Made by a program: the position numbers and the translations under genes | The notes under the pieces: generated by a model | What the model saw: the letters and a program-made list of their open reading frames with translations, nothing else | The model's database searches: none | Told to the model about the DNA's origin: nothing | Assembly (NCBI GenBank): GCA_032718475.1 | Contig: JAUCBJ010006880.1 | Location: 1-64,000 of the forward strand | Direction: 5' to 3' | DNA length: 64,000 nucleotides | Origin: Nemertoderma westbladi | Taxonomy: Eukaryota; Animalia; Xenacoelomorpha | In this document: positions 25,488-63,548 of the stretch, one piece after another | Layout: each line of letters begins with the position of its first letter | How positions within the stretch are numbered: position 1 is the first letter of the stretch

Positions 25488-25557
25488 AGTTAATTTGGCA
25501 GCTTATTGTTAAGTGGTAGACAAATTTATTTGTCTAAGTCCCCCCCCCCTACATGAA

Positions 25558-26723
25558 TGTTCGCGCTTTCAGACCTTTAGCAGTTTAACCTGCCAAATTG
25601 GGATGTCTTCTAGATAATAGATAGTCTTTAGCCTATGACGAGTATTTGATACACTACATTAGCCGAAGCCAGTCTATGCGCGATCATTCACCCGCTGGAT
25701 ATACCCGCTGGATTCGGAAGCCTAACCGTATTGCGATGTAGGCCTACTGTATTATTCGACTGATCGTAATATATAATCTCTGACAAATATTATTCACTTT
25801 CGGGAAATATTAACAGTTCCTTTAGGACGTGGCGCTCTAAATATGTAAACAGAGTTATGACTTAAACTAGACACAACGGGATGGCTATAGATTCACGTAT
25901 ATGGCGCATTCTTTAGGAGATGCTTTGTTATCAGTTACAATCATACACAATACTGCACAATGCTGCACACCGATCTGCCGACCTTCACTAATTTTAGTCA
26001 CATATAAAGAGAACAACAACCAATACATGTAGTGCCTATGAAATAGCATTAGATTCACTTCAAAACCACTTTAATGTAAGTCGCAATCGTTATATGTAAC
26101 CGCTCTCTCTTACCTTCAGTATATCAAGAAGATTGAGGGTTTGTAATTATTTATCAGTATTCCAAATATAATAATATTCCATCAACAGATATAATGAATA
26201 ACCGACAGTAAATAGCAGTAAATTGTTAAGTTATGAATGGTTAAGTAATGATTGATATGGTTTGGATTGATAACAGATATACGTTCTATAATTAAGCCTA
26301 CTAATGCTGGGCTAAAGACTGAAAACACAGAGAATCCGAAGCCGGTCTTCTAGGCTCAGGACAAAATGTAAACATTGACCCATAATGCATTGCGCGATTT
26401 CTCGGAGGTTTCTGTACAAAAAGCAGGAGAATCGCTCTGATTGGTTGACCGAACAAAGAAACACCAGAGAACAAGGAAAAAGCTACACGTGTACAGCTCA
26501 GCTGTTAGCTGTCGTCATAGTAACTACACTGTTTCAAGAGGATCTAGCGCATTGCGTCATAGAATTGCTAATTATGTCCGCTAAAGTACACATACAGAAG
26601 AAATGGCTTTTTATGTCCACTAAAACACCAGTACAGTAAGGACACGGCCTTTTATGCCTGTTAAACCAACTACAGAGTACTTTGCGGGGAAAATAACTGG
26701 CTAATTCCGCAAAAGCTTTTACA
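25558..26723 (-). repeat. 3' LTR (1166 bp) of the BEL/Pao element
   Basis: Matches 41722-42892 except one 5-bp indel (GGAGA) and the few substitutions I could see; identical 84-aa spurious ORFs at offset 16169. Confidence 0.96.
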
Positions 26724-26731
26724 CCGCTCCC
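26724..26731 (-). promoter_or_regulatory. Polypurine tract (GGGAGCGG) of the LTR element
   Basis: Purine-rich octamer immediately 5' of the 3' LTR on the element's sense strand. Confidence 0.75.
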
Positions 26732-26801
26732 AGAAAATGGGATTTAAGTCTATAAAATATAAAAAATCACAGTTTCTAAAATATAAAAATACTCTAAACA
26801 G

Positions 26802-27248
26802 TTAGTCTTTCTTACGCGCACGGCGTTTACGCAGTTTTTTGAGGCTAGCAAGAGTCCTTTTCTCTTTGGGGCGAGCCACTTTACTAGGAGGGGTGTAACT
26901 CCTGGGTGAAGGGTGCAATACAATTGCATCAGAAGGTTTAGGATTACGATCGGTGTATCCGCTGGTCGAGGTACCTGGTTGATCGATATCAACTTCAGTG
27001 GAGCGAGGTCTAACGGCCTTTAGGGCGCGTCTTAGGACAGCAGCTCCTACGGGTCCTTGACGGGTCGTCTGGACAATGGCGGTGGGTGGACCGTGAGTGG
27101 TGAGAAACTTCCTCAGTTTAATGGTTCTTTCCAGCTCACGTTCTCGGGCTCGATATTCGTAGGGCCATCGAGATACTTCCTGTAACTCAGGGTGCGAGTT
27201 GATAAATAAATCGCCATACTCAGGGTCTTGACGGATGAAATTGATCAA
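26802..27248 (-). CDS. Accessory ORF of the retrotransposon, basic C-terminus; probably the frameshifted continuation of 27245-28573
   Basis: Frame is open from about 27315 and overlaps the end of the 442-aa ORF; ends KKLRKRRARKKD (NLS-like) 78 nt before the 3' LTR. Confidence 0.55.
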   Translation of the reverse strand: MINFIRQDPEYGDLFINSHPELQEVSRWPYEYRARERELERTIKLRKFLTTHGPPTAIVQTTRQGPVGAAVLRRALKAVRPRSTEVDIDQPGTSTSGYTDRNPKPSDAIVLHPSPRSYTPPSKVARPKEKRTLASLKKLRKRRARKKD

Positions 27249-28573
27249 ATGGTATGAAGTAATATCGTTAGGATTGACGTTCCTGAGATATTTTCGAACA
27301 AATTTGGTGGAAACTCACCAACACGCTTCATTAGTTCGTAACTCGGTGTGCGTGTTTTTTGTTCAACAGACGCGAATAAATAAGGATGGAACGCGTAAAC
27401 TCCCTTGTAAGAGCGTCCAGGGTAATAGCGATGGCGGGACTCACAATGTAAATCTGCGTTTGCTTCCCAAGCTCGGATGTAGCGCAGGGTAATCATCTCA
27501 TCTACGCTTTCTAAATCGCGGTTAAAGGGGCAATTATAACTGGCATGTCCTTTAAGTTGACAGTGGTGGCATTGAGTCATAAATTGGGGGCAGACTGCAA
27601 AAATGTGCGAGTTATTAAGTCTGCAATACGCACAATAGATCTCCATCATCGGTTGTTCGTGGAAATAGGAGCAGGGTACGTCTGAGTCCATAGGGGTGAA
27701 ATGGTCTCTCGATGCGCATAATCGACAACGTTTTCGAGAAACATAGTTGGCGTGTCGATAATCGTATGCTGTGAGACATTGTGGACCTTGATACCACTCC
27801 AAGACGTAATCATTATCGCTGCTCCGGGGCGCTGTAGGCTGATTCGCTTCAGATTCTAAGCATATTGGTTCGTCTTCCAATTGCATAGCTGAGGTAGGTG
27901 CGGCTGTATCCGCAAGCGGACCCACTGTCTGAACTTCCACGACAGAATAACCCGTGGGTATTCGGGGTCTTTGTATAACAGATGAATGTAAGTTCTGTAT
28001 ACAAACATCCTGGAAAAGGGCAAATCCCGCGCTGTTTAGCTTCTCCGCAGCTGAGTCTCTTAGGCTGAGTTTTGTCAGAGCGCAGTCCTTGAACTGACTA
28101 TCAACGTTACGGAACGTAGTCAGAAAGCGCCTGAAACATTCGAAGCGGATGAATTTATTGTGTTCATCTAACTTGGCGAGTTTGGTTCCAAGTATTAAGG
28201 GATGGGCGCGTATGGTACGACTGCACACATCGGCTAGCCAACCGGCAAGTGCTGCGTTTTCAAAGATCGTGTATATAGCTAAGGAGGGACGAAGTGGAAC
28301 ACTCATAAAGCTATACACGGCGCCAGGTGCGGTCAATGGTCCATCAAAGTATAAACGAGAATAATGATCTCCATATACTTGTTGGTAATTGATAGGATTT
28401 CCAACCTTGAAATTCCATCCGTATTCTTGAAAGGCAAGATGTCCGATGGAGGTTCGTTGTACTTTAGTAATGCCGCTGGGTGTATTGGCATACATAGTGC
28501 GGAAGAAACCTCGGCCTTCTGCCCAGGGAGCAATCAGCTGAGTATCAACGAAAGGGTATGGAATGTTCTCCAT
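27245..28573 (-). CDS. Accessory 442-aa ORF with three CCHC-type zinc-finger motifs, function unknown (not env-like)
   Basis: Long ATG-started non-repetitive ORF inside the element; CRLC-x4-H-x9-C, CAYC-x5-H-x4-C, CHHC-x4-H-x4-C; no obvious signal peptide or transmembrane segment. Confidence 0.72.
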   Translation of the reverse strand: MENIPYPFVDTQLIAPWAEGRGFFRTMYANTPSGITKVQRTSIGHLAFQEYGWNFKVGNPINYQQVYGDHYSRLYFDGPLTAPGAVYSFMSVPLRPSLAIYTIFENAALAGWLADVCSRTIRAHPLILGTKLAKLDEHNKFIRFECFRRFLTTFRNVDSQFKDCALTKLSLRDSAAEKLNSAGFALFQDVCIQNLHSSVIQRPRIPTGYSVVEVQTVGPLADTAAPTSAMQLEDEPICLESEANQPTAPRSSDNDYVLEWYQGPQCLTAYDYRHANYVSRKRCRLCASRDHFTPMDSDVPCSYFHEQPMMEIYCAYCRLNNSHIFAVCPQFMTQCHHCQLKGHASYNCPFNRDLESVDEMITLRYIRAWEANADLHCESRHRYYPGRSYKGVYAFHPYLFASVEQKTRTPSYELMKRVGEFPPNLFENISGTSILTILLHTI

Positions 28574-29369
28574 ATTCCCGTCGTATGCCTAATATGTCTT
28601 CCATTGATGGTAGTGGTAGAGAGCAGGGGAAGACCTATGTCGTATTCAGAAATATTCAGAAATACGATCTCAGTTCTCAGTAGGAGGATTCAAACTTTCG
28701 AAGACTATCTCTAAATGAATTTATCCCCAGTGATTAGGGGGTGAACAACCAGATTTATGACACATAATGGTACCAGTTGTTCACAAACTATCTGCGTGTC
28801 CTTTCAGTCCTTGTATCACGGTTGTGGACTTAAGGAAATCATTGATGGTTGACTTTCTAATCCACAACGAGAGGGTGGAAGTTGATATCATAAATATCAA
28901 CAGAGTGTGACATGGACAGGAGGTGCGGACACCAATATGAGCATCCAGATTAATAGTAAAGGATGGGAGGTTTATTAAGAGGCGGTATGATCAATACCAC
29001 GATACAGCAATGATCGGTCGATCGTCTCCCAAAGCTCCGAGCGCGTTGGGAAGAGAAGGTGGGACGAAGTATGTTGTATTTTCAATAGCGATGTATAGAG
29101 GGATAAGAGGAGTAAAGTGGAGGGAGGAGATATGGTAGTATCCATAAGATACCACAATGGACATGTTTTCCATCACGTCATCATTCATTCTTGCCTTTTA
29201 ATTGTGACACTGATCACAATAATTACAGGAAAACGATGAAGGAAGAGAAAATTACAGCCTCCCGAAGGAGACCGCCCGTGAGCACCCGTGCCCCGGGGAA
29301 AACTATTCACATTATGGACCCTGGACATTAACCCATGTCTCTTCTCCAGTGGTTCTCCTCTATTTGTCT

Positions 29370-29768
29370 TTACAAGCCTTCTTCCACGTTATATCTTTCG
29401 AGTTGATTTCGAATAGAATTCCCGTGTTCCATTCTCGGTTCATCGTGCCGACTCCGCTGGGTATGATATTTAAATAAAACCATTTCCCTTTCGGTGTCTA
29501 CATCGTCCGTATCGTGTAAATCGATAGGATGGCCAGTAGTTAAGAAGTCCATATACATACCATTACGATGCGTATAGCGAGCGGTGAACTTTCTATAATC
29601 CAATTCACGCGTAAGTTGCTCCGGGGACATTGGCGGTTCGATATAACAACCATCATCCTCCGTAGTAGTTGGACCAGCGTCGCCGCGTATCAAGTTATTG
29701 ACAAACGCTTGTAAAGGTAGAGTATATCGCTCCCTGATACCAAGATCATCTTCTATCAACTCAGTCAT
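29370..29768 (-). CDS. Small acidic accessory ORF (132 aa), unknown
   Basis: ATG-started, same strand as pol, protein-like composition; preceded by a possible CAG acceptor; no recognisable family. Confidence 0.45.
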   Translation of the reverse strand: MTELIEDDLGIRERYTLPLQAFVNNLIRGDAGPTTTEDDGCYIEPPMSPEQLTRELDYRKFTARYTHRNGMYMDFLTTGHPIDLHDTDDVDTEREMVLFKYHTQRSRHDEPRMEHGNSIRNQLERYNVEEGL

Positions 29769-30585
29769 ATCTGCTATATGAGTTTATCAATATTATAATG
29801 AGTTTATATATTAGGCTAGCGGGCGTCGCTGCCTACCCCTCTTTTGCCCCCGGACAGTGCAAGATCCTCAGCGCCGATGTACCGTCATCGCTGTGCTTTC
29901 GCCAACGATGTAGCTACACAACGACAACGATAACTGGCACAAGTCACTCCACTGTTCGTCCCAAAGGCTTAGATGTACTTCAGGTTCTTTCTGGAGAGTT
30001 AGGGCTACTTTCACAATTGCGACTCGCTACTGTAAACACACTTTAGTAGTAACATTCACCTACAAACACACAAACTCCCCCAAACTGTCACAAATCGCAC
30101 ACATTCGGGCCATTTGTCCGTTAGTCAGTGCCTTCCAGAATGCCACGTTATTATTGGGTATCCTGGGATACTATCAGTGTGCTATTTATTCCTTATGCTA
30201 TTCAATGGGCAAGCTTTATTGTTCTTTTAACTCACTTCTAATGCTAGCGTGGTTGTTGCCATGATGACATCATGGAAAGCTAGCGGTAGAATTAGGGTAA
30301 TTCTCATGCATACAGATCTGGGATGCTATTTAATAGTAATTCTTTAATGGTCAATATCCTCTTTATACATGACTTTATGAATTTTATCGGCTATTGACTA
30401 CATATTGGAGATTCTCGCACACTAATATACTTAATAGGGTGAATCTCCGCTCCCATGATCTATTAATTTATGGAATTTTGGGAATGTTATAAATTGTATA
30501 AAAATGACAATTTATCAAATTCATTAAAATATGAATTTAAATTTATTCCCGTAAATTTTATTATTTAATATTGAATAGACACAAT

Positions 30586-30850
30586 TTTATTCCAGAACAT
30601 GTCTGGGGACTAGGATCCTTGATTCTAGGAAATTGGTCTTTTTAAGAATATCGGTAAGTGCTACGATATCTTAATAGACTAGAATTTTAAAGGATCTAAA
30701 ATTTGACAGATTTTGTAAATATTAATAATTAATATTTAGGATGGGCACCAGTTTATTCCAGAACTTGTCTGGGGACGTTAACCACTGATTCTAGAATTTT
30801 GTCTTTCAAGTATATCGGTGGGTGCCGCGATATCTTAATCGACTAGAATT
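30586..30850. repeat. Two diverged direct repeats (period about 166 bp) in the post-pol spacer
   Basis: TTTATTCCAGAAC(A/T)TGTCTGGGGAC...TGATTCTAG...TATCGGT...GATATCTTAAT.GACTAGAATT occurs at about 30586 and about 30752. Confidence 0.7.
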
Positions 30851-31399
30851 GCAGATGGTCAAAGGGTTTAACAGATTTATTTGCGTTGTACGCTACTGTT
30901 AAAGGGACATCACGCTACTATATGTATTATTTAATATACGGTATGAGAGCAATATCGCACGAAGCAATGTCAGTGAGAAGAGGCAAGTCGTTTCCAAGGT
31001 CTACCCAGAGCTTGGTTTAGCCGAGTCACGACGATCTGAATTTTGCATTCCTAATACTCTACTTTACCAATAATACTTGAATATTGTAGGAGCTTTATTG
31101 TACTTTAATAAGTACGGATATTTCATCTTACTGTAGTTACGTATTTGTAATATAATACGGACAGTAAGGAAAGAGAAAAATAATTATTTCTCGCCGTCGC
31201 ACTAAATATATAATATATAAGTAATTAAATAATAAACGCAAATATATATTGCACTAATCTACTAAATAATCGCTAAAATAACATTCTACTAAATAAAATT
31301 AAAGAAAACGATTATAATAAAATTACATAATAATACATACATAAATATAAAATAATAAGAATATAAAATAATATGGTCACACACCCACTCCAGACGCTG

Positions 31400-34300
31400 C
31401 TAAGCTGGGGAGTCCCTAGATGTTTGTTGGATTAGGGAGGTGGTCGTGGGAAGAGTATCTTGTCTTCCATAGTTTCCGGAGAGTTCTCTGTCTCTTTCCA
31501 GTAAACATAAACGACCAACTGGGCGATTGAGCTGCTGTGTCTCGAAGACAATTCCCGGTTTCTTGAAGTTACGTCGCATGACGACGAGTTCTACCGATCG
31601 CACCAAACCGTCATCCGAGATGTGAGTCTCGATGATACGACCTGTCTGCCACCGCTTACGTGGAAGATCTGCATCCACAATAAGGACCATGTCTCCAGCG
31701 CTGACGTTTTCTTGCTGCGCAAACCACTTTGTTCGAAGTTGTAGCGTGGGCAGATAGTGTTTTTCGAAATGGTCAGCGAAACGACGGGATAACAACTGCA
31801 TGAGTTGCCAAGTTTGCCGGCAGTATTCGTCTCCGTCTGTGATTTCCGATTGTGGGAGCATGGCTACAGGTTTCTTCAGTAGGAAGTGCGCGGGTGTTAG
31901 CGCTTCCAGGGAATCGGGACTCGATGAGACTGGCATAAGCGGTCTCTCGTTGAGATAGGCGGCGATTTCCTCCATTAACGTCCGCAAAAGTTCGTCGGTG
32001 AGATACGCGCGGCACGGCACTATAAAGTGAAACGCGGTCTTCACACTTCTTATTAATCTCTCCCAACTTCCTCCCCACCAAGGGGCGTCGGCGGCGTTGA
32101 AGGTCCAGCTAGACGCTGTTACTCGTAGCTGATCGTCCACCTGTCTTTGGTTCCAATCTTTGACGTAAGCTTTGATTTCATTGTTGGCACCAATGAAGTT
32201 TGTTCCCTTATCAGATCTCATCGTGTTACTAGTTCCAAAGCGAGCGATCTGTCGTCGTAAGCTTAATAGGAAGCTGTTGGTAGATAAATCGTTCACCATA
32301 TCGAGATGGATAGCTCTACAAGTCATACAAACAAAGATGACACACCATCTCTTGACTATAGTCCTAGCACGATATACTTCAATAGGGCCAAATAAATCTA
32401 CACCGGTATTAGTAAAGGGTGGTTCATAGAAGCTTACTCGTTCCCTAGGTAATTCTGCCTCTCGCTGTGTTAAAGGCCTACTGAATGCTTTCCTACAGGG
32501 TATGCAGTTCCTAAGAACTTGGTTCAGAGCTCTACGGGGTTTATAAAAATAATAGCGAGTTCGAATTTCGCTAAGAACTCGTTCTCTACCAGCATGATAA
32601 AGTTTGCTGTGAACATCTACAATCATCTTGACTTGTATCTCAAGATTTCTAATGAGTATGGGAAACTTAGTGTCAAAGGATAATGGAGCATTCGTTAATC
32701 TTCCTCCAACACGTATCAACCCATCTATCATTGTGCTAGAGAAACGATCCCTTAAGTGCATCTGTGGATTTCTCAACAACAGGAAATACTTATCGGAATC
32801 CTCATAGCATTGCAGGAGTCTCAGCATCTGCTTGTTGGTTTCTTCATGCTCCTGATAACTGATCTTCTCCTTCAGAAACCTGTCGGATATCTTATATTTG
32901 GGAAGATCTTTAACAACATGGACCTGCACCGATGTTAGTGGAGCGGTATCACCTTTGGTCTTCATCCCGGAGTAGTGATGGTGAAAACATCTTTTTAAAT
33001 ATGTAACGGCCTTACAGAGCCGATTCCAGGAACTGTAGTGATGTATCGCTCTCTGCAGGAGAGGTGAGAGTCCTTGCGAGACGTCTGGTATTCCAGATTT
33101 CCAATCCTTCTCACGGATTTCCACAACAAACTTATTTGTGGCTGTGGGTTTCTGATCCAAAGCGTCGTCTCCGGAAGTATGTAGTACAGACAGATCTACC
33201 ATAGGTTTAAATAACTTCGATTTACTCGCCCGAGTTTTAGGTTTGACTTTCTCCGCTCCCTTGGCCTGTCTAATCTCTGCTGTAGTAAGATGAGGAGGCC
33301 ATTCTTCTTCTTCTTTGTAGAGGAAGTCGGGTCCACCTAACCAGTCTGGAGTATCTACCAGTTCTTGTGGAGTTGCTCCCCTGGAGGCGATGTCTGCTGG
33401 ATTGATCGTTCCGGGGCAATGTCTCCATTGATCCATCTTCGTGCGACTAAGTATAATGGCTACTCTGTTGGTAACGAAGACGCTGAACTGACAGACTTCA
33501 TTGGTTATATACTCCAACACGAGTAAAGCGTCGGTCCAATAGACAGTTTTCTCCAATGGATAATCGATCTGTTCCGTTACATTCCGGCCGATGGCTGTAG
33601 CGTATAGAGCCGCTTTTAACTCCGCTCGAGGAACTTTCAACTTGTTGTTTATCAATGCCTTAGAGGTAACCAAGGCGACTTTGATTCCATCCGGAGTTTC
33701 CACTCTTAGGTAGGCTACTATACCTATTCCCATATCGCTGGCGTCTCCAAACACATGGAGTTGATAGGAATACGTAGGGAGAACATGACCAAAATATGAA
33801 CGGGAAATTATAAAGTTCTCGATGGCTGGTAGAGAATCTTCCCATTTCATCCACTTCTTTAATAATTCTCCCTTAAGTGGATCGTCCCATGAGTGGTTTT
33901 CAAGCCACATTTGTTGTACTAAACTCCGAGCAATCAATATAACTGGGCTAATAAATCCCAATGGATCGAAATAAGTGCTCAGGATACTTAAACAAATCCG
34001 TTTAGTCCGAACTGGATTATCTCGCTGTTTTAGCTGGAAAAACAGGATATCTCTCTCTGTGTCCCATTTCAAACCAAGTGTCTTGGTTTCTGGAAGATCA
34101 TCTTTGATTAGATCTAGGTCTTTCGCTCCTCGATCTTCTACCGGGATCGACTCCAGAAACTCACGGGAGTTGCTGGTGAATTTAGTTAATCGAAATCCAC
34201 CTCTTTTTAAGCACTCTACCGTTCCTTTTGCGACATCAATGGCTTCTTCGACTGATGGAAGGGACTTTAGGTTGTCGTCCATGTATATATCCCGTTTGAT

Positions 34301-36271
34301 GTTGTCAATCACCTCTTTAGAGAAGGCTTCTCGGTTGTCATCCGCAGTGGTGCGCACCACTGAACAGGCGTTTGAAGGGCTTGAGATTATCCCAAAAGCC
34401 TGGATGGTCATCCAGTACTCCACCGGTTTCTGGTTGAGGTCTCCTTCAGGCCACCACAGAAATCGTAGGCTATCTCGATCCCTATCCAGCGCCTTGACTT
34501 GTAAGAACATGCCTTCTATATCTGAGGCGAAAGCGATTGAATATTGTCTTAATCTTAAGAGTATTCCCAACAAGGATTGGAGTAAGTTGGGTCCGGGTAA
34601 CAATTCGGAATTAAGGGATTGGCCCATATAGAGGGCGGAGCCGTCAAACACTACTCGTACCTCATGGGGTTTACCGGGTTTGGGAACGTAATGGTGAGTT
34701 AAATAATACGTTCTCTCAGTTATAGGTGTTTCTTCCGGTACTCGCTCCGCATATCCCTTGCTAATAAATTTCTTCAACTGCGTTTGATACATTTCTTTAG
34801 CTGAAGAATTTGCCGTAAGGCGTCGATGTAGTTGAGCAATTCTTTTCTCCGCCAAGGGTCTGTTGTTTATGAACTTTGGTTCTCGCTTTCGGACAGGTAG
34901 ACCGATCTCATATCTACCTTGATCTTTAAGAAAACGTGTAGTTGTCTCTTGGATCTGCTTGGCTCTTTCTTCCTCTACCGATAGGGCCTTATCGTAGGAA
35001 TTGGGCTCTACAGCCTCTTGAGTAAAGAATCTTACGGCGTGTTCATCCCGAGTCTTGGTATTATAACGTTCAATGACGTCATTAAGTTCGTCGTTATAGT
35101 CGTCTCGTTCTGATGGACGAAGGAGCTGACATAAGTTCACTTGGTTTTGCCAAGTCTCGTTTTCCTTAAGGAGATCAATGGTATTCTCCTCGTCGAAGAG
35201 TTGGTGGACATCGTCATTATCTGAGGAGTATGGTGTTCCCTCAGTTGGATCGTCTAACTCACTGCTCTCAACTTCCCATTCTCTTACTTGATATACCTGA
35301 TCTTTCGGTAATCTTTCCATGAGAGTTCTACGGGAAGGGCCAGTAAAGTACCAACCCACTCTAGTTCTTCCCGCATAAGCTTGTAGTGGTTGGGGTTGAG
35401 CAGGCCGTTTCTCCAATGTCTCGAGTGCTTCATGCGCATTTTGACCGATAAGTATTTGCATTCCAGGGTAATCGGTGTTGAATCTAGGTATTTCGAGCTG
35501 CTGGGTGAAATCGTCCTCATCCCAGTTATAAGGTTCCACTTGGCTGGTAGCGAAGTTCTTTATCGCCACCATTTTTACTGACCTTATACTATGTTCTCCT
35601 AGTTCATCCTGGGGGGTGGACAACGCACCTACATAATAATCCGCGATTACTGTAGATTTCCAAACCTGCATAATTCCTGACATGTTTAGCTTAGTTCGGA
35701 ACTTGGGTTGTCCAGCAAAGATGTCTTCGGCTAGTTCTTTGTCGATGAATGTTCCTGTGCTACCGGAGTCAAGGAGGGCGTTCACTATATAACTCCTTTT
35801 AGGTCCCTGGACCCTTAACTGTACTACAGGAAATTCTCGGATTCCTACATTGGAAGTTGGCGCTTTCCAAGATGGTTGTCGATCAGAAGTAGCTAGGGTG
35901 AGGTCGCTGTCTGTGTCTTTTTCATACGTAAGTGCTCGATACACTGCGGTATTTATCATGTAACAGGATTCATCTTCGTCGGAGAATTCATTCGTATAGA
36001 ATCCTTCCATCTCAGAACTTTGGTCAGTGTCGTTCACATCACTGAATTGGACATGTAGTTCGGAATCACTTACCTGACTCGGACTGTTTCGTTCGAATTC
36101 AGTGTGCAACAAAATATGATGTTTCGCACCGCACTTTGCACACCTTGTGTCGGAGTAACAGGTTCGCCGTTGGTGTCCTTGTCTGAGGCAATTATAACAC
36201 AACCGCTTATCCCACATGACTTCCCGTCTCTCTGTTAATGATTTCTTCAGGAATTCATCACACATATTCAA
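31400..36271 (-). CDS. BEL/Pao polyprotein, main part: gag zinc knuckles, aspartic protease, RT, RNase H, integrase (1623 aa)
   Basis: CYNCLRQGHQRRTC..CAKCGAKHHILLH; ALLDSGSTGTFI; RVVFDGSA..SLNSELLPGP; DIEGMFLQV; YMDD; LHVFGDAS; VPRAELKAA; NPADIASRG; HxxxxH..CIPC; GVDLFGP, SDKGTNF, GGSWERLIRSVK. Confidence 0.96.
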   Translation of the reverse strand: MNMCDEFLKKSLTERREVMWDKRLCYNCLRQGHQRRTCYSDTRCAKCGAKHHILLHTEFERNSPSQVSDSELHVQFSDVNDTDQSSEMEGFYTNEFSDEDESCYMINTAVYRALTYEKDTDSDLTLATSDRQPSWKAPTSNVGIREFPVVQLRVQGPKRSYIVNALLDSGSTGTFIDKELAEDIFAGQPKFRTKLNMSGIMQVWKSTVIADYYVGALSTPQDELGEHSIRSVKMVAIKNFATSQVEPYNWDEDDFTQQLEIPRFNTDYPGMQILIGQNAHEALETLEKRPAQPQPLQAYAGRTRVGWYFTGPSRRTLMERLPKDQVYQVREWEVESSELDDPTEGTPYSSDNDDVHQLFDEENTIDLLKENETWQNQVNLCQLLRPSERDDYNDELNDVIERYNTKTRDEHAVRFFTQEAVEPNSYDKALSVEEERAKQIQETTTRFLKDQGRYEIGLPVRKREPKFINNRPLAEKRIAQLHRRLTANSSAKEMYQTQLKKFISKGYAERVPEETPITERTYYLTHHYVPKPGKPHEVRVVFDGSALYMGQSLNSELLPGPNLLQSLLGILLRLRQYSIAFASDIEGMFLQVKALDRDRDSLRFLWWPEGDLNQKPVEYWMTIQAFGIISSPSNACSVVRTTADDNREAFSKEVIDNIKRDIYMDDNLKSLPSVEEAIDVAKGTVECLKRGGFRLTKFTSNSREFLESIPVEDRGAKDLDLIKDDLPETKTLGLKWDTERDILFFQLKQRDNPVRTKRICLSILSTYFDPLGFISPVILIARSLVQQMWLENHSWDDPLKGELLKKWMKWEDSLPAIENFIISRSYFGHVLPTYSYQLHVFGDASDMGIGIVAYLRVETPDGIKVALVTSKALINNKLKVPRAELKAALYATAIGRNVTEQIDYPLEKTVYWTDALLVLEYITNEVCQFSVFVTNRVAIILSRTKMDQWRHCPGTINPADIASRGATPQELVDTPDWLGGPDFLYKEEEEWPPHLTTAEIRQAKGAEKVKPKTRASKSKLFKPMVDLSVLHTSGDDALDQKPTATNKFVVEIREKDWKSGIPDVSQGLSPLLQRAIHHYSSWNRLCKAVTYLKRCFHHHYSGMKTKGDTAPLTSVQVHVVKDLPKYKISDRFLKEKISYQEHEETNKQMLRLLQCYEDSDKYFLLLRNPQMHLRDRFSSTMIDGLIRVGGRLTNAPLSFDTKFPILIRNLEIQVKMIVDVHSKLYHAGRERVLSEIRTRYYFYKPRRALNQVLRNCIPCRKAFSRPLTQREAELPRERVSFYEPPFTNTGVDLFGPIEVYRARTIVKRWCVIFVCMTCRAIHLDMVNDLSTNSFLLSLRRQIARFGTSNTMRSDKGTNFIGANNEIKAYVKDWNQRQVDDQLRVTASSWTFNAADAPWWGGSWERLIRSVKTAFHFIVPCRAYLTDELLRTLMEEIAAYLNERPLMPVSSSPDSLEALTPAHFLLKKPVAMLPQSEITDGDEYCRQTWQLMQLLSRRFADHFEKHYLPTLQLRTKWFAQQENVSAGDMVLIVDADLPRKRWQTGRIIETHISDDGLVRSVELVVMRRNFKKPGIVFETQQLNRPVGRLCLLERDRELSGNYGRQDTLPTTTSLIQQTSRDSPA

Positions 36272-37365
36272 ACGGGGGTCCCGTCACATAGCACACATTT
36301 CGGTTTGATGTTACTTACCTTATTTTGAATAACATTGTGCACATTTGTTCTTTCTTCGGGCTTTCTCACCTGAATTCTCTTAGGAGACATAGGAGGAGTT
36401 TTTCTTACCTGTTCTCTCCTGTCATTGGTTCGAGACTTGAATTTACTTACCTGTTCTTTAGGCGTTTTATTGACATAATAAGATCTTTCAGTGTCTTTCC
36501 CGCTATCCTCTCCTTGAGAAGTCTGGCTTTCGCCGTCGTCGGTATAACACACTGGTGTTACTTTTCTCCTAGAAACGGGTTTCTCACTTACCTTGTTTTC
36601 CAGTGTCTTCTCTCTGGACTGTTTTAGGAGTTGTAATTTCACTTCTCCATCTACGAATGACATGAGATCAGCCATGGTAGGGTCTCGTCGTTGTTGTTCC
36701 ATCATATATAACACTTTCTTATCCCAGCGTGTACCTACTCCACCCTTAGGTAAAGTAGAAGCCACGGCTCCAATAACCATAGAACTCTGATATTCATGAG
36801 ACTTACCTAACCAATCTAATTGTCTACAGATCTCTTGAATCTCATCGGAAAACTCTATTATCCCGCTGCTAATGAACTTTCGGGGCGCTACTAATTTTGC
36901 ATACAAATATTTAGCTATGTTATTCCTATTACCATACCTGATGTTTAGTGTATCCCAAACTTGTCTTAATCCATCCGGATGTCCAATAAACTTTAACGCC
37001 ATTAACTTGGGAGATCCTTCCAAACACTCGATGAGGAATCTAAGTTTCTCTCCGTTAGATAGCACAGAGTTCTGTATGTTATCTTTGTAATATTCATTAA
37101 AAGGTAACCATTTCATCTCATCTCCATTGAACTTGACTATCTCTCCCACCTTTACCACTTGACGGGCTTCAGTTCTAGCCATTTGACGCGTAAAACTTTC
37201 TTGGGCCATCGTGTTATTTAATATCGAGTTATCGGTATATAAATTTCTCGGATTATTATCAAGTCTATATGGGATATCATTGTCAACAGGTTTATAATTA
37301 CCCTTAATAGGGTTTACTATAGGAGTTTCCACTTCGCTAGCAGTATAGATGCGTGTAGGCTCCAC
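36268..37365 (-). CDS. BEL/Pao gag core (DUF1759-like), split from pol by a 1-nt frameshift
   Basis: KFNGDEMKWLPF..EKLRFLIECLEG..WDTLNIRYG signature; ends CVLCDGT, the first half of a zinc knuckle that continues (RLNMC) in the next frame. Confidence 0.88.
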   Translation of the reverse strand: MEPTRIYTASEVETPIVNPIKGNYKPVDNDIPYRLDNNPRNLYTDNSILNNTMAQESFTRQMARTEARQVVKVGEIVKFNGDEMKWLPFNEYYKDNIQNSVLSNGEKLRFLIECLEGSPKLMALKFIGHPDGLRQVWDTLNIRYGNRNNIAKYLYAKLVAPRKFISSGIIEFSDEIQEICRQLDWLGKSHEYQSSMVIGAVASTLPKGGVGTRWDKKVLYMMEQQRRDPTMADLMSFVDGEVKLQLLKQSREKTLENKVSEKPVSRRKVTPVCYTDDGESQTSQGEDSGKDTERSYYVNKTPKEQVSKFKSRTNDRREQVRKTPPMSPKRIQVRKPEERTNVHNVIQNKVSNIKPKCVLCDGTPV

Positions 37366-37390
37366 ACCTTGCGCATGAAATACTTCAGAC

Positions 37391-39544
37391 CTAACAGGTT
37401 GGACCAGGGTTGCAACTAACTAATTTATCGCGTTCTAACGCGATACTTTGCTGCACTTCTTGCAACTCTAACCTACTTTCCCTTACTGTGCCCTTGAACT
37501 GCTTAACAGTCTCCTGCATCTGCCCGAGCAGGAGATCCATCCCCCGCCATCTCTCATCCACCCACTCGACCGCCGAAGCGGGAGCCGCCAACGTTGTAGC
37601 AGGCAGACGAGGGACAACGGGCGACAAATCATTAATATTTCACTCGGAGTCCAGAACATGAACTGTCTCCTGGGCTGTTCTGCTGGGCACAGGTAGCTTA
37701 GTGCTATGCAAAGGGAATCTAGAGGTAGGTTCTGGGAGTACAGGTGTCTCTATCACCGAAGGGGTGGATTCGAGAACAGGCCTAATTATTTCAGGCTCAT
37801 CTACTATAGTAGGGAGTCTGTCTATTTTAATAATTTGGTCTGTGGGTTCTGTACTACCTAAGTCTGTGCTAACTAGTTGTTTTCGAACAGCTGGGGGCAA
37901 ATCAGGCAATTTCTGACGGTGGGACATTCTTCTACGTCTGCTGAGACGAGATCGATTTCTTCCGCCTTCAGGATCTGTTGTATCGCCCTCATCTGATGAT
38001 GTAAAACCCTGTCTCTTGGGAGTAGATCGACTCATCATCTGCATTTGACTAGCTGTTAACTGTTTATTTATGCAGTCCCGACTCTCCTGAATATCCTCCA
38101 ACTCCAGTTGGGTGGTCTCTTCAGCTGCTCTTCTTTCTGCTTCAGCCAATGCTAGCTTTCTTTCTGCTTCTACTGCTGCCACTGCCGCTTTTCTATCTGA
38201 TTCTGCCGCTGCAGCTTTTGCCTCTGCCGCTCTTCTTTCCGCTTCTACTGCTGCCACTGCCGCTTTTCTATCTGATTCTGCCGCTGCAGCTTTTGCCTCT
38301 GCCGCTTTTCTTTCCACTTCTGCCGCTTTTCTTTCTGCTTCTGCCTCTGCTGCTGCCGCTGCTGCTATCTTTCTGTCTTCTATACGTTTTTTCTTTACTT
38401 GTTCTTCTTGGACTCTAGTGATGCGGAGGCGTTCATCAAATTTAGCTTGGTTCGCAGCTCTCATATCCACATCGATTGCGTCCAACACAAGCTTGGCTCC
38501 TTCACTATTAGGGCTAAGCCCCTCCAGCCTTCTCCTCAACTCTTCATCACCTACAAAGCGTTGATAGTCTGACAGATAGATGTCAATAGCATCCCTCTTA
38601 TGCGGTTTCTCTGCTGTCGCTTCACTTTCCACTTGGGAAAATGTAGCGTCTGTGGATTCTTCATGGGTTGAGCGCTCAGCTAACTGAGATTTCCACGGGG
38701 CAGTTCTTTGAACTTGGAGATTCACCCGCTGTAACCAAGTCTTTACGGCAACTTGCAACGACGTGTCTTGTCTTCTTTTCGAAGCCTCCTCAAAGGCCGA
38801 TAGGATTAGTCTGATTCTTAGAATTCTTTCTCGAACTTGATAAAGCAGCTCTCCCTGCTCTTGAGGTCCTTGTGATTGTCTAAACAATTGTTCTTCTAAT
38901 CGCTCCATGGAGCTGAAGAATCCCTGTACGTATCCGGCTGCGGACCTCTTCCACACAGCTGGATCGATGGTTTCCTTGGTTACTCCCATCCTGTGTATGT
39001 CTTCCCAGGCAGCTTCCGATAAATCAAACGGGAGTCCGGGTCCGGGGAAGTTCCATTGCGACTCGACCATAGGCTTCAGTTCTTCCCTTGTGTATCCCGC
39101 ATAACGATCGTTAGTCGATCGCTTATTTCTCGCCCAATCAATCTGGTGTTCCTCCACCGCAATCAATAACCTTGTGAGTATGGCTGCAGGAAGGATGAGA
39201 AGGGGATCCGAATAAACCGCATCTGTCATCTTTGCTCCGTGCTCGGGTGTCAGCTCTACAGTATCCGCACTACTGGAGCTGTCGGGCCGCTGAGAAATAA
39301 GTTCTCGGCTCGTGGGTTGTTGCTGTTCTGCTGCTTCTTGGTCCCGCTTGACCTGAGCTCGAGTGCCTATGATAGACCTACGGTGTTGGACTAGCCTAGG
39401 GTCTGATATTACTACTGGAGGGATGATCTTTCTTACAGTAGGAGGTGAGTTGAACTTCGGTCTCACACGTTCCACACTCCTGTCTGGGTCACATATGGTT
39501 GTATCTAGGAGACTGTCTGACAGGTTTTGCTGTGTGTCAGACAT
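37391..39544 (-). CDS. Extended N-terminal gag region (634-aa ORF, in-frame TGA, then 78-aa ORF) with Ala/Glu/Lys coiled-coil repeats
   Basis: ATG at 39544; TGA at 37640-37642 is in frame with 37391-37627; removing a 4-bp duplication (TTAGTTAGTT, about 37414-37423) joins it to the gag core. Confidence 0.7.
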
Positions 39545-40877
39545 GTTTGTTTGTACAGTTGAATGCCTACTGCTATATTACAGTTTAAGCAAGTCTAGTA
39601 ATTCAGTATCACTGTTAGCCTAGTAATTAATTACCGATACTGCTACTCAGCGTAGCGTGATATATATAATATATTAGAATACCGGTATGCTTATGGTATA
39701 TATAAGTATTATTACAGACTAGGTTTGTCACAGAATACCGGTAGGCAATTTCAGCACAAATATATAAATATATAATAGGCCTATCGTGAATACCGGTATA
39801 CAGCTTACACTTATAGTATATATATATAAGTATAATTACAGACTAGAATTGATTACAGAATACCGGTATATAATTTAGCCTAAATTTATAGAAATAAATA
39901 TAATAAGCCTATCGCGAATACCGGTATGTCAATTATTTTTAAATAATTGAATTTCTGAATTTTAGGGGTTACTTGGTTACTTTAACTTACTTTATTACCG
40001 TTATTTAAGCAGTAGTCCAACTGATATTAAGACCTAATTGTTGTAAGGCAGGCCTACTATTTATAAATCGTTTGAGTTGATTTATAGTATATATACCCGT
40101 TAAAATGGGTTTTTGTCAATATTTGAAATAAATGTTATTATTTCTGGGGGGAGTCACTACACAGAAGCTGTGTGCTCTCAGTGGAGTGTTACTTGTTGGA
40201 CACTAAAACAAATAATTCTAATTTACCTAAGTTACTTAATACTACAAATTACGTACAATTCTGGGTGAGATTATAATCTCTAAATAAACACAAAAATTTA
40301 CAAGTACGAATTTTTAGGGTAATTTTACAAGAAGTCTACAAACCAGCCTAACAAAGGGTTAGAATATCTGGTTATTACAACGGACAGGGTACTACGGTAT
40401 TTGAAAATAATAAGTAGTAGTAAATATACTGCGTTGTCCAGATAGGAAAATACCACCGTCTGACGACTTATAGCCGTATCGCTATAAGTACTACGTTATG
40501 TATCACGGAGTGTTCCTACCTAGAAGTTAATTACCGCGGTCTACCAGAACCAACGTGCCTATTAACCACTTTACAACACAAATATACTGTCTACACACCA
40601 ATTGCCTTCGGAAAGCACTGTACACTAAACCCTAAATTAGGTACAAGTACTTATACAACAAATAATCAGTAGTTAAAAATACTTGAACAGCTAAAAGAAC
40701 CACGGTATCTGCTGGAGTGACCGGGGCACAAAATCATCAGTCTTTACCTACGCCAAGCAGCCCTGATGTAGTACCGGGGTTAGTTTAACTATAACGGTAT
40801 ATATAACAAGCACAATTACTGTAGGAATTAACTTTGGGATATGAATGTTGCGAATAATTGCATAAACTCTGAAGAAT

Positions 40878-41448
40878 AAATATTACGCTACGCGTACAGA
40901 CTACTCAAACAAAATGCAGACCAAATGCTGACAGACTACTATCAAGCCTAAACAAACTACGGTATATGCAGACTCCGAAATGGTTAGTTAGTATGCGTTC
41001 TAACCGAGTAGTACGTCTTATTCTTTCGAGGGGGTTTACCTCACAGCATTGGAAGCCCCTACGTTCCCAACTGGCACTTTATCGGACATACACTCTACAC
41101 ACACCGAAATCTCTTCAGACCTAACAACAGCCAGGCAAAATCCAGCCTACAAATTATCTAAATAAGAAATATTACGCTACCCGCACAAACTACACAAACA
41201 AAGTACAGACCAAACGCTGGCACACTACTATCAAGCCTAAACAAACTACAGTATATGCAGACTCCGAAATGGTTAGTTAGTATGCGTTCTAACCGAGTAG
41301 TACGACTTATTCTTTCGAGGGGGTTTACCTCACAGCACTGGCAGCCCCTACTTTCCTAACTAGTACTTTTTCGGACATACGCTCTACACACACTACAGTC
41401 CCCTCAGACTTAACAACAGTCAGACAACAGTCCAGCCTACAAATTATC
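40878..41448. repeat. Two about 290-bp tandem duplicates in the retrotransposon 5' leader
   Basis: AAATATTACGCTAC...GCAGACTCCGAAATGGTTAGTTAGTATGCGTTCTAACCGAGTAGTACG...TCCAGCCTACAAATTATCT occurs twice (about 40878 and about 41167). Confidence 0.85.
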
Positions 41449-41709
41449 TGTACAATCTGAGCAGGCTTACACGCCTTCTGCTCAATATTGGCCTACAAAT
41501 AAATAATACTGACAGAAATAAGTACAATCCCAATAAAAACCAGGCGTCCCCGATTACTTATTAAGACCTACCGGTATATAATTATCAAAATCTAATAATA
41601 CTGCTGTACCTGTACTGCTGTAGGTACCGGTCCGGGTGGTTAGGTAGTCAGGCCTACTGGGTACCGGTTGCCGGTACTTCAGCTTTATTGCCTACTGCAA
41701 TACAGAAGC

Positions 41710-41721
41710 TATATCTGTTAT
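41710..41721 (-). promoter_or_regulatory. Putative self-complementary primer-binding site (ATAACAGATATA)
   Basis: Occupies the PBS position directly after the 5' LTR, lacks TGG, and is the exact reverse complement of sense-strand LTR sequence at 42439-42450. Confidence 0.6.
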
Positions 41722-42892
41722 TGTTCGCGCTTTAAGACCTTTAGCAGTTTAACCTGCCAAATTGGGATGTCTTCTAGATAATAGATAGTCTTTAGCCTAT
41801 GACGAGTATTTGATACACTACATTAGCCGAAGCCAGTCTATGCGCGATCATTCACCCGCTGGATATACCCGGGAGACTGGATTCGGAAGCCTAACCGTAT
41901 TGTGATGTAGGCCTACTGTATTATTCGACTGATCGTAATATATAATCTCTGACAAATATTATTCACTTTCGGGAAATATTAACAGTTCCTTTAGGACGTG
42001 GCGCTCTAAATATGTAAACAGAGTTATGACTTAAACTAGACACAACGGGATGGCTATAGATTCACGTATATGGCGCATTCTTTAGGAGATGCTTTGTTAT
42101 CAGTTACAATCATACACAATACTGCACAATGCTGCACACCGATCTGCCGACCTTCACTAATTTTAGTCACATATAAAGAGAACAACAACCAATACATGTA
42201 GTGCCTATGAAATAGCATTAGATTCACTTCAAAACCACTTTAATGTAAGTCGCAATCGTTATATGTAACCGCTCTCTCTTACCTTCAGTATATCAAGAAG
42301 ATTGAGGGTTTGTAATTATTTATCAGTATTCCAAATATAATAATATTCCATCAACAGATATAATGAATAACCGACAGTAAATAGCAGTAAATTGTTAAGT
42401 TATGAATGGTTAAGTAATGATTGATATGGTTTGGATTGATAACAGATATACGTTCTATAATTAAGCCTACTAATGCTGGGCTAAAGACTGAAAACACAGA
42501 GAATCCGAAGCCGGTCTTCTAGGCTCAGGACAAAATGTAAACATTGACCCATAATGCATTGCGCGATTTCTCGGAGGTTTCTGTACAAAAAGCAGGAGAA
42601 TCGCTCTGATTGGTTGACCGAACAAAGAAACACCAGAGAACAAGGAAAAAGCTACACGTGTACAGCTCAGCTGTTAGCTGTCGTCATAGTAACTACACTG
42701 TTTCAAGAGGATCTAGCGCATTGCGTCATAGAATTGCTAATTATGTCCGCTAAAGTACACATACAGAAGAAATGGCTTTTTATGTCCACTAAAACACCAG
42801 TACAGTAAGGACACGGCCTTTTATGCCTGTTAAACCAACTACAGAGTACTTTGCGGGGAAAATAACCGGCTAATTCCGCAAAAGCTTTTACA
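41722..42892 (-). repeat. 5' LTR (1171 bp) of the BEL/Pao element
   Basis: TG...CA ends, bounded by the ATGAA TSD; sense-strand CCAAT at 42609-42613 and ATTAAA at 42239-42244. Confidence 0.96.
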
Positions 42893-44302
42893 ATGAATCA
42901 ACCCGGCAGGTTTCCTTCACTGGGGACAAATGACCAATTGGGTGTCCTATTTGGAAATGCCTGGGGCTAAACGGCCAATCACATCTTAGAATGTTCTGAG
43001 CTCCATTCACTACCCTGCACAGTGCACTTTATTTAATTACACTGTACCACTGAGTCAAGGCCACCTAAATAAGTTTATCTCAATATTGTTTAGATGGCCT
43101 TGCACTGAAGTCTCATGAAGTGGGTCTAAACGACTAAATGAGTATCATGTTCTAGCCCCGTTTCACCCCAATATTTTCCAATTGCCGTACGTTTTCTACC
43201 CACTTTTGGGACTTTGCGCCCCCTCTGACGCGAAGAATGGCCCCCAGCCCGTTCCCAGGCCCCTGGTTATTGCCGACTTTGCAAAGCTGTCGTACCCAAC
43301 GAAAGTTATACATATCTATGCCATACATAACGTACGCTATGATGCCATACCAACCAGCCATATTGTATTTATTATGAGACAGTGACTGATAAATAATCAG
43401 CTGTTATCCTGCGCAGCTACAGTAGCTGTATGGTAAGGTAACATAGCAACGACGTAAATATTAGCATTATACTGCTTTAACGATGTACCGGTTAGTCAGC
43501 ACTCATAAGTCAGGATTACCTTCTCAACAACCGTAACAGAGTTTGGTCTTAGTCTGGTTAGATTAGATTAGATATTTATTGACAAAGCAATACAATAGGT
43601 AGCGTTTCAGAGGTTACGTTAGGGTCGTTGTATGCCCGTTTTTTTTTAACATTAGGGAAATATTACATTAATTTGGCGCTTTTCCAAACGCGCACTTAGA
43701 ATGTATCCTGTCTGCCTGGTACAACCTGGGCTGCCGACATGTTCATGTTACGTAGCAATATTGCATGCTAACAGAAACAGACTGGCAGATGACCCGAATG
43801 CGAACAGCCGGATGCCTATTCAGCTATTGCAATACCGGTAATATGGTATTGTCTTTCTCTGTTTGGCTAACGCATCGCTCTGTAGTCTGGTCTGTACCGA
43901 CAGACCGGTAGGCGTTATGTTGCCTACTCTCTCTGGTCTGGTCGAACCGGGTTGGTACCGGCGCGTTTCCGCTATCTTTGTTGAATACCGGTTCCGACTA
44001 TTTTCAGGTATATCTCGCTATTTGCAATTGCAACTGTAACATAACGTATCGGTTCGGTAATACTAAAGAAATATTTACAAAGTGTGTCATTGAATTGCTT
44101 TTAATTTGCTAAAAAGTAAATAAGGTAAATTGTACGTCCCCAAATAACGTATTGTTACTTATTATTTAAATGTATATGTGAATTAGGCCAAGTTTAGCAC
44201 AGTTACCGCTACCATCTTACCGTTAGGCCTATTACACACGGCTAATCGCTCAATTCAACTTACAAACTTTCTTCAGAAGTTAAGAAATAAATACGACCAG
44301 CA

Positions 44303-48620: not shown

Positions 48621-48670
48621 TTCTATTTATATGGCCATTTCATCCTCACGGACGTCTTCAGTAAATTAAA
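48621..48670 (-). ncRNA. Type I hammerhead ribozyme motif (mirror copy)
   Basis: Exact reverse complement of 48763-48812. Confidence 0.75.
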
Positions 48671-48762
48671 TTAAAATAACATTAAAACACAATAATTTTT
48701 AAATATATGATTTTAACCCCCATAACTTTTTTAAAAATTATTGTGTTTTAATGTTATTTTAA

Positions 48763-48812
48763 TTTAATTTACTGAAGACGTCCGTGAGGATGAAATGGCC
48801 ATATAAATAGAA
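48763..48812 (+). ncRNA. Type I minimal hammerhead ribozyme motif
   Basis: ATTTA-CTGAAGA-C-GTCC-GTGA-GGAT-GAAA-TGGCCA-TA-TAAAT: CUGANGA and GAAA cores, stem II with GUGA tetraloop, palindromic stem III, stem I ATTTA/TAAAT; predicted cleavage after 48803 (AUA). Confidence 0.78.
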
Positions 48813-49217
48813 ACTGTTTTTGTTAACCGTGGCATTAGACCCTTTCTACAGTCATTATCCCTGAAGTTATAATTATGGATACGCCACGAACGGCATCATT
48901 TCGACTTCTTTCCCAATTTTTGGAATAACTCAGTCGTAGTTGTTGGTAACAATAAATCTGAAGGCCAATATTCAGCACTGATCCATCGATATATTGCTCC
49001 TCATCTCTCTTTATGGTTACTATGGGAATTCGCTAGAGCTTTTAAAACAAGTGGAAAAAATTTAAAATGACTTTTTTTCTCTTTATTGAGTACGTTTTAT
49101 GGGCACTGATTATCTGTAATTGATGTATAATTGAAAGAATTTATTACATTTAAACTTTAACGTACTGGTACTTAGTGGCGGGTGGTGAGTTTTGAGTTGT
49201 TTGGTACAACAGCATAT

Positions 49218-63491: not shown

Positions 63492-63548
63492 GTAAGTTGT
63501 ACTGCACAATAGTCAGTACATAATTACATATACAGACAGGCATACTGT

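What the first reader, a model, noticed from the sequence alone, without database searches (positions are those of the whole stretch)
41710..42450. Candidate self-priming (tRNA-independent) BEL/Pao retrotransposon
Seen: the LTR boundary is fixed by the TSD and the two-LTR alignment. The sense strand directly after the 5' LTR reads ATAACAGATATA, and there is no TGG for about 180 nt, so a tRNA-CCA-complementary PBS is absent. The exact complement (sense TATATCTGTTAT) lies inside the LTR at 42439-42450. The match starts precisely at the LTR edge; a 10-nt echo is at 42353-42362. My rough chance estimate for a given 12-mer of this composition in a 1.17-kb LTR is a few in 10^4. Known: Tf1 of fission yeast and related Tf1/sushi Ty3/gypsy elements prime from the first about 11 nt of their own mRNA, released by RNase H; BEL/Pao elements are generally described as tRNA-primed. 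Inference: a T|A start at 42449 would give an 11-nt self-primer, with CCAAT upstream (42609) and ATTAAA downstream (42239) in the expected U3-R-U5 order. I am not aware of self-priming being described in BEL/Pao.
Basis: partly seen in the sequence, partly recalled or inferred. Interest (0 to 1): 0.9.

Follow-up and report, generated by a model that had tools for sequence, protein, structure and literature searches.

The report
Self-priming BEL/Pao retrotransposon lineage
A BEL/Pao jumping gene lacks the usual host-tRNA landing site and has there 12 letters that pair exactly with its own terminal repeat; most readable relatives keep such pairing with different letters, often only across a predicted intron, so these elements likely start copying themselves with a piece of their own RNA.

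Summary
Observation confirmed. A 17.3-kb BEL/Pao element (LTRs 99.3% identical, 5-bp TSD) has no TGG primer site; the 12 nt after the 5' LTR are the exact complement of LTR 42450-42439 (chance about 1-3 in 1000). Relatives at 30-44% Pol identity keep a 10-15-nt PBS-LTR match with family-specific letters: 10 of 14 with two-LTR-defined ends (2 tRNA-type, 2 unresolved), and 21 of 79 in a blind scan against 3.8% of swapped pairs. In most relatives the match exists only across a predicted GT-AG intron in the LTR. Two sister families show compensatory changes at that junction. This element is one of the intron-less forms and shares the relatives' primer-end motif (A-C/T, then C). Best reading: self-primed reverse transcription, Tf1-like, with a primer that host splicing likely builds in most relatives. 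The proposed start site at 42449 is untested. No RNA data, other copies or host tRNAs could be checked, and this element sits on a long, unplaced branch. I found no such report for BEL/Pao in 10 literature searches; ICTV lists tRNA priming. This scan noted the same trait earlier in other genomes.

The parts
25558..42892 (-). Whole BEL/Pao LTR retrotransposon copy, 17.3 kb
41722..42892 (-). 5' LTR, 1171 nt, TGT...ACA
25558..26723 (-). 3' LTR, 1166 nt; 3 substitutions and one 5-nt indel against the 5' LTR
42893..42897 (-). Target-site duplication TTCAT, upstream copy
25553..25557 (-). Target-site duplication TTCAT, downstream copy
41710..41721 (-). Non-tRNA primer-binding site, starting at the LTR edge (ATAACAGATATA)
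42439..42450 (-). Exact 12-nt complement of the PBS inside the 5' LTR: inferred self-primer; ends A-T followed by C as in relatives
26270..26281 (-). Same 12-mer in the 3' LTR
42353..42362 (-). 10-nt echo of the complement; role unknown
42487..42491 (-). TCAGT, initiator-like or splice-acceptor-like, 39 nt upstream of the complement; alternative start site, untested
42277..42282 (-). Splice-donor-like GTAAGA downstream of the complement and 38 nt upstream of the poly(A)-like signal; predicted only
42239..42244 (-). ATTAAA, the only A(A/T)TAAA in the LTR; candidate poly(A) signal that would place the complement in R
26724..26731 (-). Short polypurine-tract-like GGGAGCGG before the 3' LTR
37640..39577 (-). 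First gag-region ORF (645 aa stop to stop, no Pfam hit)
36268..37419 (-). gag-region ORF with DUF1759; separate frame from its neighbours
31400..36283 (-). pol ORF, 1627 aa: zinc knuckle, protease (DSG, 35776), RT (YMDD, 34285), RNase H (Peptidase_A17 model; four acidic motifs at 33748-33400), integrase (H2C2, DUF5641)
27245..28588 (-). Extra 3' ORF, 447 aa, Cys/His-rich, weak zinc-knuckle hit below cut-off
26802..27314 (-). Extra 3' ORF, 170 aa, basic C-terminus

Best explanation
This BEL/Pao element has a 12-nt primer site that is the exact complement of a stretch of its own LTR, and it likely primes minus-strand DNA synthesis with that stretch of its own RNA instead of a host tRNA. Inferred steps: the 5' LTR part of the RNA (42450-42439) pairs with the PBS; the element's RNase H cuts at the 3' end of the duplex (after A-T, before C) and frees a 3' OH, as shown for Tf1; RT copies U5 and R; plus-strand synthesis later copies the primer back into the PBS, which would keep PBS and LTR matched in each family. 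In most relatives the pairing stretch is split by a predicted spliceosomal intron, so host splicing of the 5' LTR RNA would build the primer. The intron would survive because strong-stop DNA ends downstream of the splice acceptor and then copies the unspliced 3' LTR. This element is an intron-less form, probably derived by intron loss. Shown: the sequences, the complementarity, its recurrence and the intron-like signals. Not shown: start site, splicing, cleavage, priming.
For: Exact match at the LTR edge, no TGG, chance 26/20000. All four RNase H acidic motifs present (motif identity recalled). Relatives with two-LTR-defined ends: 10 of 14 have a 10-15-nt match (9 across an intron, 1 contiguous), 2 are TGG-type without one, 2 unresolved. 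Blind scan: 21 of 79 loci reach 11 nt or more against 230 of 6124 swapped pairs. With 18 further ends chosen by inspection: 28 of 30 (23 spliced, 5 contiguous) against 35 of 928 swapped pairs at 10 nt or more. Second set of loci: 5 of 7 with both LTR ends have 11-12 nt, 1 has 10 of 11, 1 is TGG-type. Sisters L091/L092: last three exon-1 bases CAC vs TAA, PBS bases GTG vs TTA. Primer end is AC or AT in 27 of 27 relatives, next base C in 19 of 27; the window site fits. A poly(A) signal lies downstream of the site in 21 of 27 relatives and in the window. Predicted pairing probability is 0.69-0.98 across 700 nt if the RNA starts at 42449-42482. Precedent: Tf1 (PMC7175516 passage); Tf1 cDNA retains a copied PBS (PMC11042837 passages).
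Against: The window's RT is on a long branch (1.9) with no supported placement, and the closest rows are about 46% identical, so the relatives' evidence carries over by analogy and by the shared end motif, not by shown descent. The site lies 717 nt from the LTR end, against 46-360 nt in the 19 relatives where this was measured. Predicted pairing drops to 0.03 or less if the RNA starts at the initiator-like 42489 or further up. The duplex is modest (-11.8 kcal/mol; relatives -8.8 to -17.9). 58 of 79 loci did not reach 11 nt in the blind scan; many contigs hold only part of an LTR, but not all misses were examined. 18 of the 30 ends were chosen after seeing the data. L049 and L041 gave no match. 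The spliced label is not significantly clustered on the tree (71 of 500 shuffles as low).
Confidence: 0.7

Rival explanations
1. The primer is the same LTR-derived sequence but comes in trans, from a short (in relatives spliced) LTR transcript or a solo-LTR RNA that is trimmed and packaged, not from a cut in the genomic RNA itself.
For: It explains the same covariation and easily explains how the intron is kept. A poly(A) signal lies 6-254 nt downstream of the site in 21 of 27 relatives, so short LTR transcripts are plausible. The window family has very many copies in its host (11153 contigs laid in run X1).
Against: It still needs a precise 3' end after A-C/T; the cis helix is predicted to form; Tf1 gives a cis precedent.
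Confidence: 0.13
2. The pairing is real and selected but structural (packaging, dimerisation, translation or splicing control); priming uses something else, such as an unrecognised host RNA or a protein.
For: No priming data exist here. Fungal GalEa copia elements have a conserved hairpin in place of a PBS with no known mechanism (PMC5445492 passages).
Against: The match starts 0-6 nt from the LTR end, where DNA synthesis must start; it is about 11 nt long; it replaces the tRNA site (absent in the 3 TGG-type relatives).
Confidence: 0.09
3. In this element the match is chance or a relic, and the PBS binds a host tRNA half or other small RNA, or this copy's PBS is damaged.
For: Chance of 1-3 in 1000 for one element is not negligible in a genome-wide scan. 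Host tRNAs could not be searched (no genome; no tRNA in the window). The element is phylogenetically isolated, and its gag region is in separate frames. Half-tRNA primers are known in copia lineages (PMC6317226 passages).
Against: The same trait recurs in many relatives with different letters, and the window site shares their end motif. The LTRs are 99.3% identical, so the copy is young.
Confidence: 0.08

Closest known systems
Tf1/Tf2/Tj1 and the Tf1/sushi group (Ty3/gypsy), self-primed reverse transcription
   Same: PBS complementary to about 11 nt of the element's own 5' LTR RNA, no tRNA site, RNase H available for the cut (PMC7175516, PMC4600332 passages). The PBS here even begins ATAAC, as Tf1's does (PMC11042837 passage); probably coincidence.
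   Different: Different superfamily (BEL/Pao). The primer is not shown to be the first 11 nt of the RNA. In most relatives the complement is split by a predicted intron, which none of the passages read describes for Tf1/sushi.
TAR lineage (Houba, Osr-1; Ty1/copia) and Tcn1 clade, predicted self-priming in plants
   Same: Predicted from the same kind of evidence: 10 nt or more complementary to a region starting 0-5 nt after the 5' LTR (PMC6317226 passages). The window element meets that criterion.
   Different: Plant copia/gypsy; contiguous complements only in that method.
Belpaoviridae / BEL-Pao LTR retrotransposons (ICTV profile 2021)
   Same: LTRs of up to 1.2 kb, gag-pol with PR-RT-RH-IN order, BEL/Pao-specific Pfam domains, short PPT.
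   Different: ICTV states priming by host tRNA-Arg or tRNA-Gly at an 18-nt PBS and a genome of 4.2-10 kb (PMC8742986, whole text). This element has no such PBS, is 17.3 kb and has extra 3' ORFs.
Fungal GalEa copia elements with a conserved hairpin site
   Same: No tRNA PBS; a conserved pairing at the PBS position (PMC5445492 passages).
   Different: Their pairing is local and within the leader; the authors found no LTR complement.

Membership tests
BEL/Pao (Belpaoviridae) | Two LTRs with TG...CA ends and a target-site duplication | tested here: met
BEL/Pao (Belpaoviridae) | BEL/Pao-type gag-pol (DUF1759, Peptidase_A17, DUF5641) in PR-RT-RH-IN order | tested here: met
   all 120 listed homologues carry PF05380
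BEL/Pao (Belpaoviridae) | 18-nt PBS complementary to the 3' end of a host tRNA (ICTV description) | tested here: not met
   No TGG for 179 nt. This is a descriptive trait; filing here rests on the proteins, and the element is reported as a variant.
BEL/Pao sub-clade (Sinbad, Suzu, Dan and others) | Placement with named reference elements | not tested
   No reference elements were in the tree; the window row is unplaced
Tf1/sushi group | Ty3/gypsy (Metaviridae) Pol lineage | tested here: not met
   Pol is BEL/Pao-type; works like Tf1, not a member
Self-priming LTR elements (Tf1-like mechanism) | PBS complementary to 10 nt or more of the 5' LTR, starting 0-5 nt after the LTR | tested here: met
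   12 nt at offset 0; criterion from PMC6317226
Self-priming LTR elements (Tf1-like mechanism) | Complement is the very 5' end of the RNA | tested here: inconclusive
   Folding favours a start at 42449-42482; TATA-like positions in relatives are inconsistent; no RNA data
Self-priming LTR elements (Tf1-like mechanism) | RNase H cleavage releases the primer; primer attached to strong-stop DNA | not testable with these tools
   needs biochemistry
Splice-built self-primer (relatives; described only in notes of this scan) | Complement formed only across a GT-AG intron in the LTR | tested here: not met
   The window copy is contiguous in both LTRs; 23 of 30 inspected relatives meet it

The most novel reading that the evidence does not exclude
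A widespread animal BEL/Pao lineage has given up tRNA priming and makes its primer from its own RNA. In most families the spliceosome builds the primer by joining two LTR exons, so host splicing licenses reverse transcription and tells the 5' copy of R from the 3' copy; the intron persists because it is re-copied from the unspliced 3' LTR. This 17-kb element is an intron-less descendant that carries the primer ready-made.
Probability: 0.55. Interest if true: 0.9.

Novelty: new variant of a known kind. Interest (0 to 1): 0.8.

Why it matters
BEL/Pao is the second major LTR group of animals, and ICTV calls its replication poorly understood and tRNA-primed. Self-priming here would be a further independent origin of tRNA-free priming, beside Tf1/sushi and plant TAR. 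A primer assembled by splicing would be a new link between the spliceosome and reverse transcription. Such elements would be out of reach of 3'-tRNA-fragment silencing at the PBS (inference), and LTR finders that require a tRNA PBS would miss or mis-score them. The idea is cheap to test: it predicts exact splice junctions and RNA ends.

Tried and rejected
No whole genome is held, so other copies and host tRNAs could not be read; no tRNA gene in the window; Rfam gave only two weak miRNA matches outside the element. No RNA holder listed. Contigs of 4 runs laid on 41460-43000: the family is very repetitive. None of the 40 listed differences falls in the PBS or the LTR site, but 305 more were not shown, so conservation within the family stays open. 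Summed depth is about tenfold lower at 42396-42447 than just downstream, and run X5 has no cover there; not interpretable. Two joints (42381 to 42438, 42389 to 42437) show copies that differ right after the site's 3' end. A closer look at the site in these runs was not obtained. Viral contigs gave no relatives and no match to the LTR-PBS junction. Contiguous-only search in relatives gave mostly 4-7 nt and first looked negative until introns were allowed. A spliced reading of the window site (11 nt, 690-nt intron, weak donor) appears only in the loose search and adds nothing to the contiguous match; rejected. TATA and initiator positions did not fix a start site. The tree did not place the element. 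L041 was dropped after (repeat ends not LTR-like); L065 was dropped from motif counts as a twin of L062.

Full report
Observation. A self-comparison finds two LTRs on the minus strand, 42892-41722 and 26723-25558, 99.3% identical. They begin TGT, end ACA and are flanked by TTCAT on both sides. After the 5' LTR the strand reads ATAACAGATATA; the first TGG is 179 nt on. The exact complement is at 42450-42439 and in the 3' LTR, and a 10-nt echo is at 42362-42353. Random LTRs of the same Markov-2 composition give a 12-nt match in 26 of 20000 trials at offset 0 and 54 of 20000 at offsets 0-3. Among 14968 internal positions only the PBS start reaches 12 nt.

Identity. The ORFs carry DUF1759, Peptidase_A17, Integrase_H2C2 and DUF5641, with protease, RT, RNase H and integrase motifs in that order (motif names recalled). 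The RT-RNase H region finds 954 homologues; the 120 listed are 37-44% identical and all carry PF05380, the named ones from echinoderms, fish, cnidarians, amphioxus and molluscs. This is a BEL/Pao element. The ICTV profile (PMC8742986, whole text) gives the family an 18-nt tRNA-Arg/Gly PBS and 4.2-10 kb; this copy has neither.

Relatives, first set. No genome is held, so I used 79 loci from metagenome contigs (best 80 of 503 confirmed, from 16 of 64 parts of the collection). Fourteen had a 5' LTR end defined by a second repeat copy. Most had no TGG, but contiguous complements were mostly 4-7 nt (9 in L045, 11 in L072), and many began right after a pyrimidine tract plus AG. Allowing one GT-AG intron in the LTR gave 10-15 nt in L004, L010, L012, L034, L040, L045, L062, L065 and L068, with donors GTAAG (GTACG in L045) and introns of 67-186 nt; L072 has 11 nt contiguous. 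L012's end was moved by 10 nt because the alignment overshot. L032 and L052 have TGG-type sites and no match; L052's is the tRNA-Met type quoted in PMC5445492 (passage). L049 and L041 gave no match and have unclear ends. So 10 of 14.

Controls. A blind scan that did not use known ends found 11 nt or more in 21 of 79 loci (19 with sensible geometry), against 230 of 6124 swapped PBS-LTR pairs, near-copies excluded. A few of the 21 are probably chance. With 18 more ends picked by inspection, which is biased, 28 of 30 relatives match at 10 nt or more: 23 across an intron and 5 contiguous (L011, L026, L057, L069, L072). Swapped pairs reach 10 nt in 35 of 928 and 11 nt in 15 of 928.

Relatives, second set. 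28 further loci came from genome bins. Seven had both LTR ends. The unchanged search gave 11 nt across an intron in L090, L091 and L092, and 7-9 nt in L081, L095 and L104. On follow-up L085 has 11 nt contiguous, L104 has 12 nt once its degenerate end is moved by 5 nt, L081 has 10 of 11 across a 162-nt intron, and L095 is TGG-type. L086, with an end chosen by inspection, has 11 nt across 1022 nt. L091 and L092 are sister families with the same upstream context; their last three exon-1 bases are CAC and TAA and the matching PBS bases GTG and TTA. Pairing stops at 11 nt in both.

Shared anatomy. In 27 relatives (twin L065 dropped) the pairing stretch ends AC (22) or AT (5), followed by C in 19. 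An AC ends 9-13 nt upstream of that end in 20 of 27, against 3-6 in eight control windows, which marks an ~11-nt unit. The window site ends AT followed by C and has AAC one base upstream of the 12-mer. A(A/T)TAAA lies downstream of the site in 21 of 27 relatives and in the window (42244), so the site is probably in R. TATA-like boxes lie 31-255 nt upstream without a common distance, six at 122-167 nt, so the start site is open and the primer may be internal. Folding predicts the long-range helix at 0.69-0.98 for RNAs starting at 42449-42482 and at 0.03 or less from 42489 upward; this is weak evidence on 800 nt.

Limits. In the RT-RNase H tree of 96 rows the window element has a branch of 1.9 and no supported group. 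Spliced and contiguous forms are interleaved (L011 groups with L018/L019 at 97; L072 with L045/L061 at 99), and the two TGG-type rows group together at 98. The window site is 717 nt from the LTR end, against 46-360 nt in relatives. Contigs from four runs show a very repetitive family but did not settle conservation of the two sites.

Mechanism. Most likely the LTR segment pairs with the PBS, RNase H cuts at the duplex end and RT extends, as for Tf1, where the first 11 bases pair with the PBS and are cut off between bases 11 and 12 (PMC7175516 passage). Tf1 cDNA retains a copied PBS (PMC11042837 passages); by the same logic each family's PBS would be a record of its primer, which explains why it matches a splice junction and not the genomic LTR. 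The intron would be kept if strong-stop DNA ends just downstream of the acceptor and then copies an unspliced 3' LTR; splicing of that copy would give intron-less forms like this one. All of these steps are inferred. Rivals: the same primer supplied in trans (0.13), a structural pairing (0.09), chance or a host RNA in this element (0.08).

Literature. Ten searches listed no paper whose title or abstract start reports self-priming or a spliced primer in BEL/Pao. I read passages of PMC6317226, PMC3601003, PMC7175516, PMC4600332, PMC11042837, PMC5445492, PMC6934838, PMC8220671, PMC3118150 and PMC554778; the last two contain no 'PBS' or 'tRNA' in the main text. A term search of PMC12440569 found nothing. 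Supplements were not read. Subscription papers, Repbase entries and GyDB pages were not searchable and may hold such a remark. The scan's own notes describe the same trait in other genomes. I had found the splice pattern before that look-up, and those notes are not counted as support.

Verdict. Real, and probably a tRNA-independent, self-priming BEL/Pao element, the intron-less form of a wider lineage whose primer is likely built by splicing. New variant of a known kind; interest 0.8.

Noticed in passing
window 26800-31400 (-): 4.6 kb between pol and the 3' LTR with extra ORFs (29370-29783, 27245-28588, 26802-27314) and no Pfam hit above cut-off. It makes the element 17.3 kb, beyond the ICTV range of 4.2-10 kb.
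   Followed up: partly
window 36268-39577 (-): The gag region lies in two ORFs separate from pol, and the first zinc knuckle is split at the 36268-36283 frame change. Either breaks in this copy or programmed recoding; not resolved.
   Followed up: no
window 40868-41449: 289-nt tandem duplication (88.7% identical) in the 2.1-kb 5' leader of the element; a 164-nt one at 30551-30878.
   Followed up: no
window 9446 to about 16000, and 16712-17403: Long 66-bp tandem array with open frames on the minus strand, followed by a 63-bp array.
   Followed up: no
window 48563-48870: Perfect 141-nt inverted repeat with a 26-nt loop, upstream of a 796-aa ORF (49810-52200, weak DUF7869 hit).
   Followed up: no
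window 19707-20501, 44291-45220, 62586-63512: Host-gene-like ORFs: cytochrome c heme lyase, TPR repeats, otopetrin.
   Followed up: no
L095:8444-14423: A complete TGG-type BEL/Pao element with a 5-bp TSD (ATCAG) inside a contig labelled as a Wolbachia chromosome: host-integrated Wolbachia DNA, mis-assembly, or a real insertion.
   Followed up: partly
L080-L107: 28 loci of animal BEL/Pao elements sit in GTDB bacterial genome bins, mostly MAGs; likely host contamination.
   Followed up: no
L072:1-326 and 6694-7103: The 3' LTR has the complement without an intron, while the 5' LTR piece has an acceptor-like tract before a similar exon start. Possibly intron loss, possibly a chimeric contig.
   Followed up: partly
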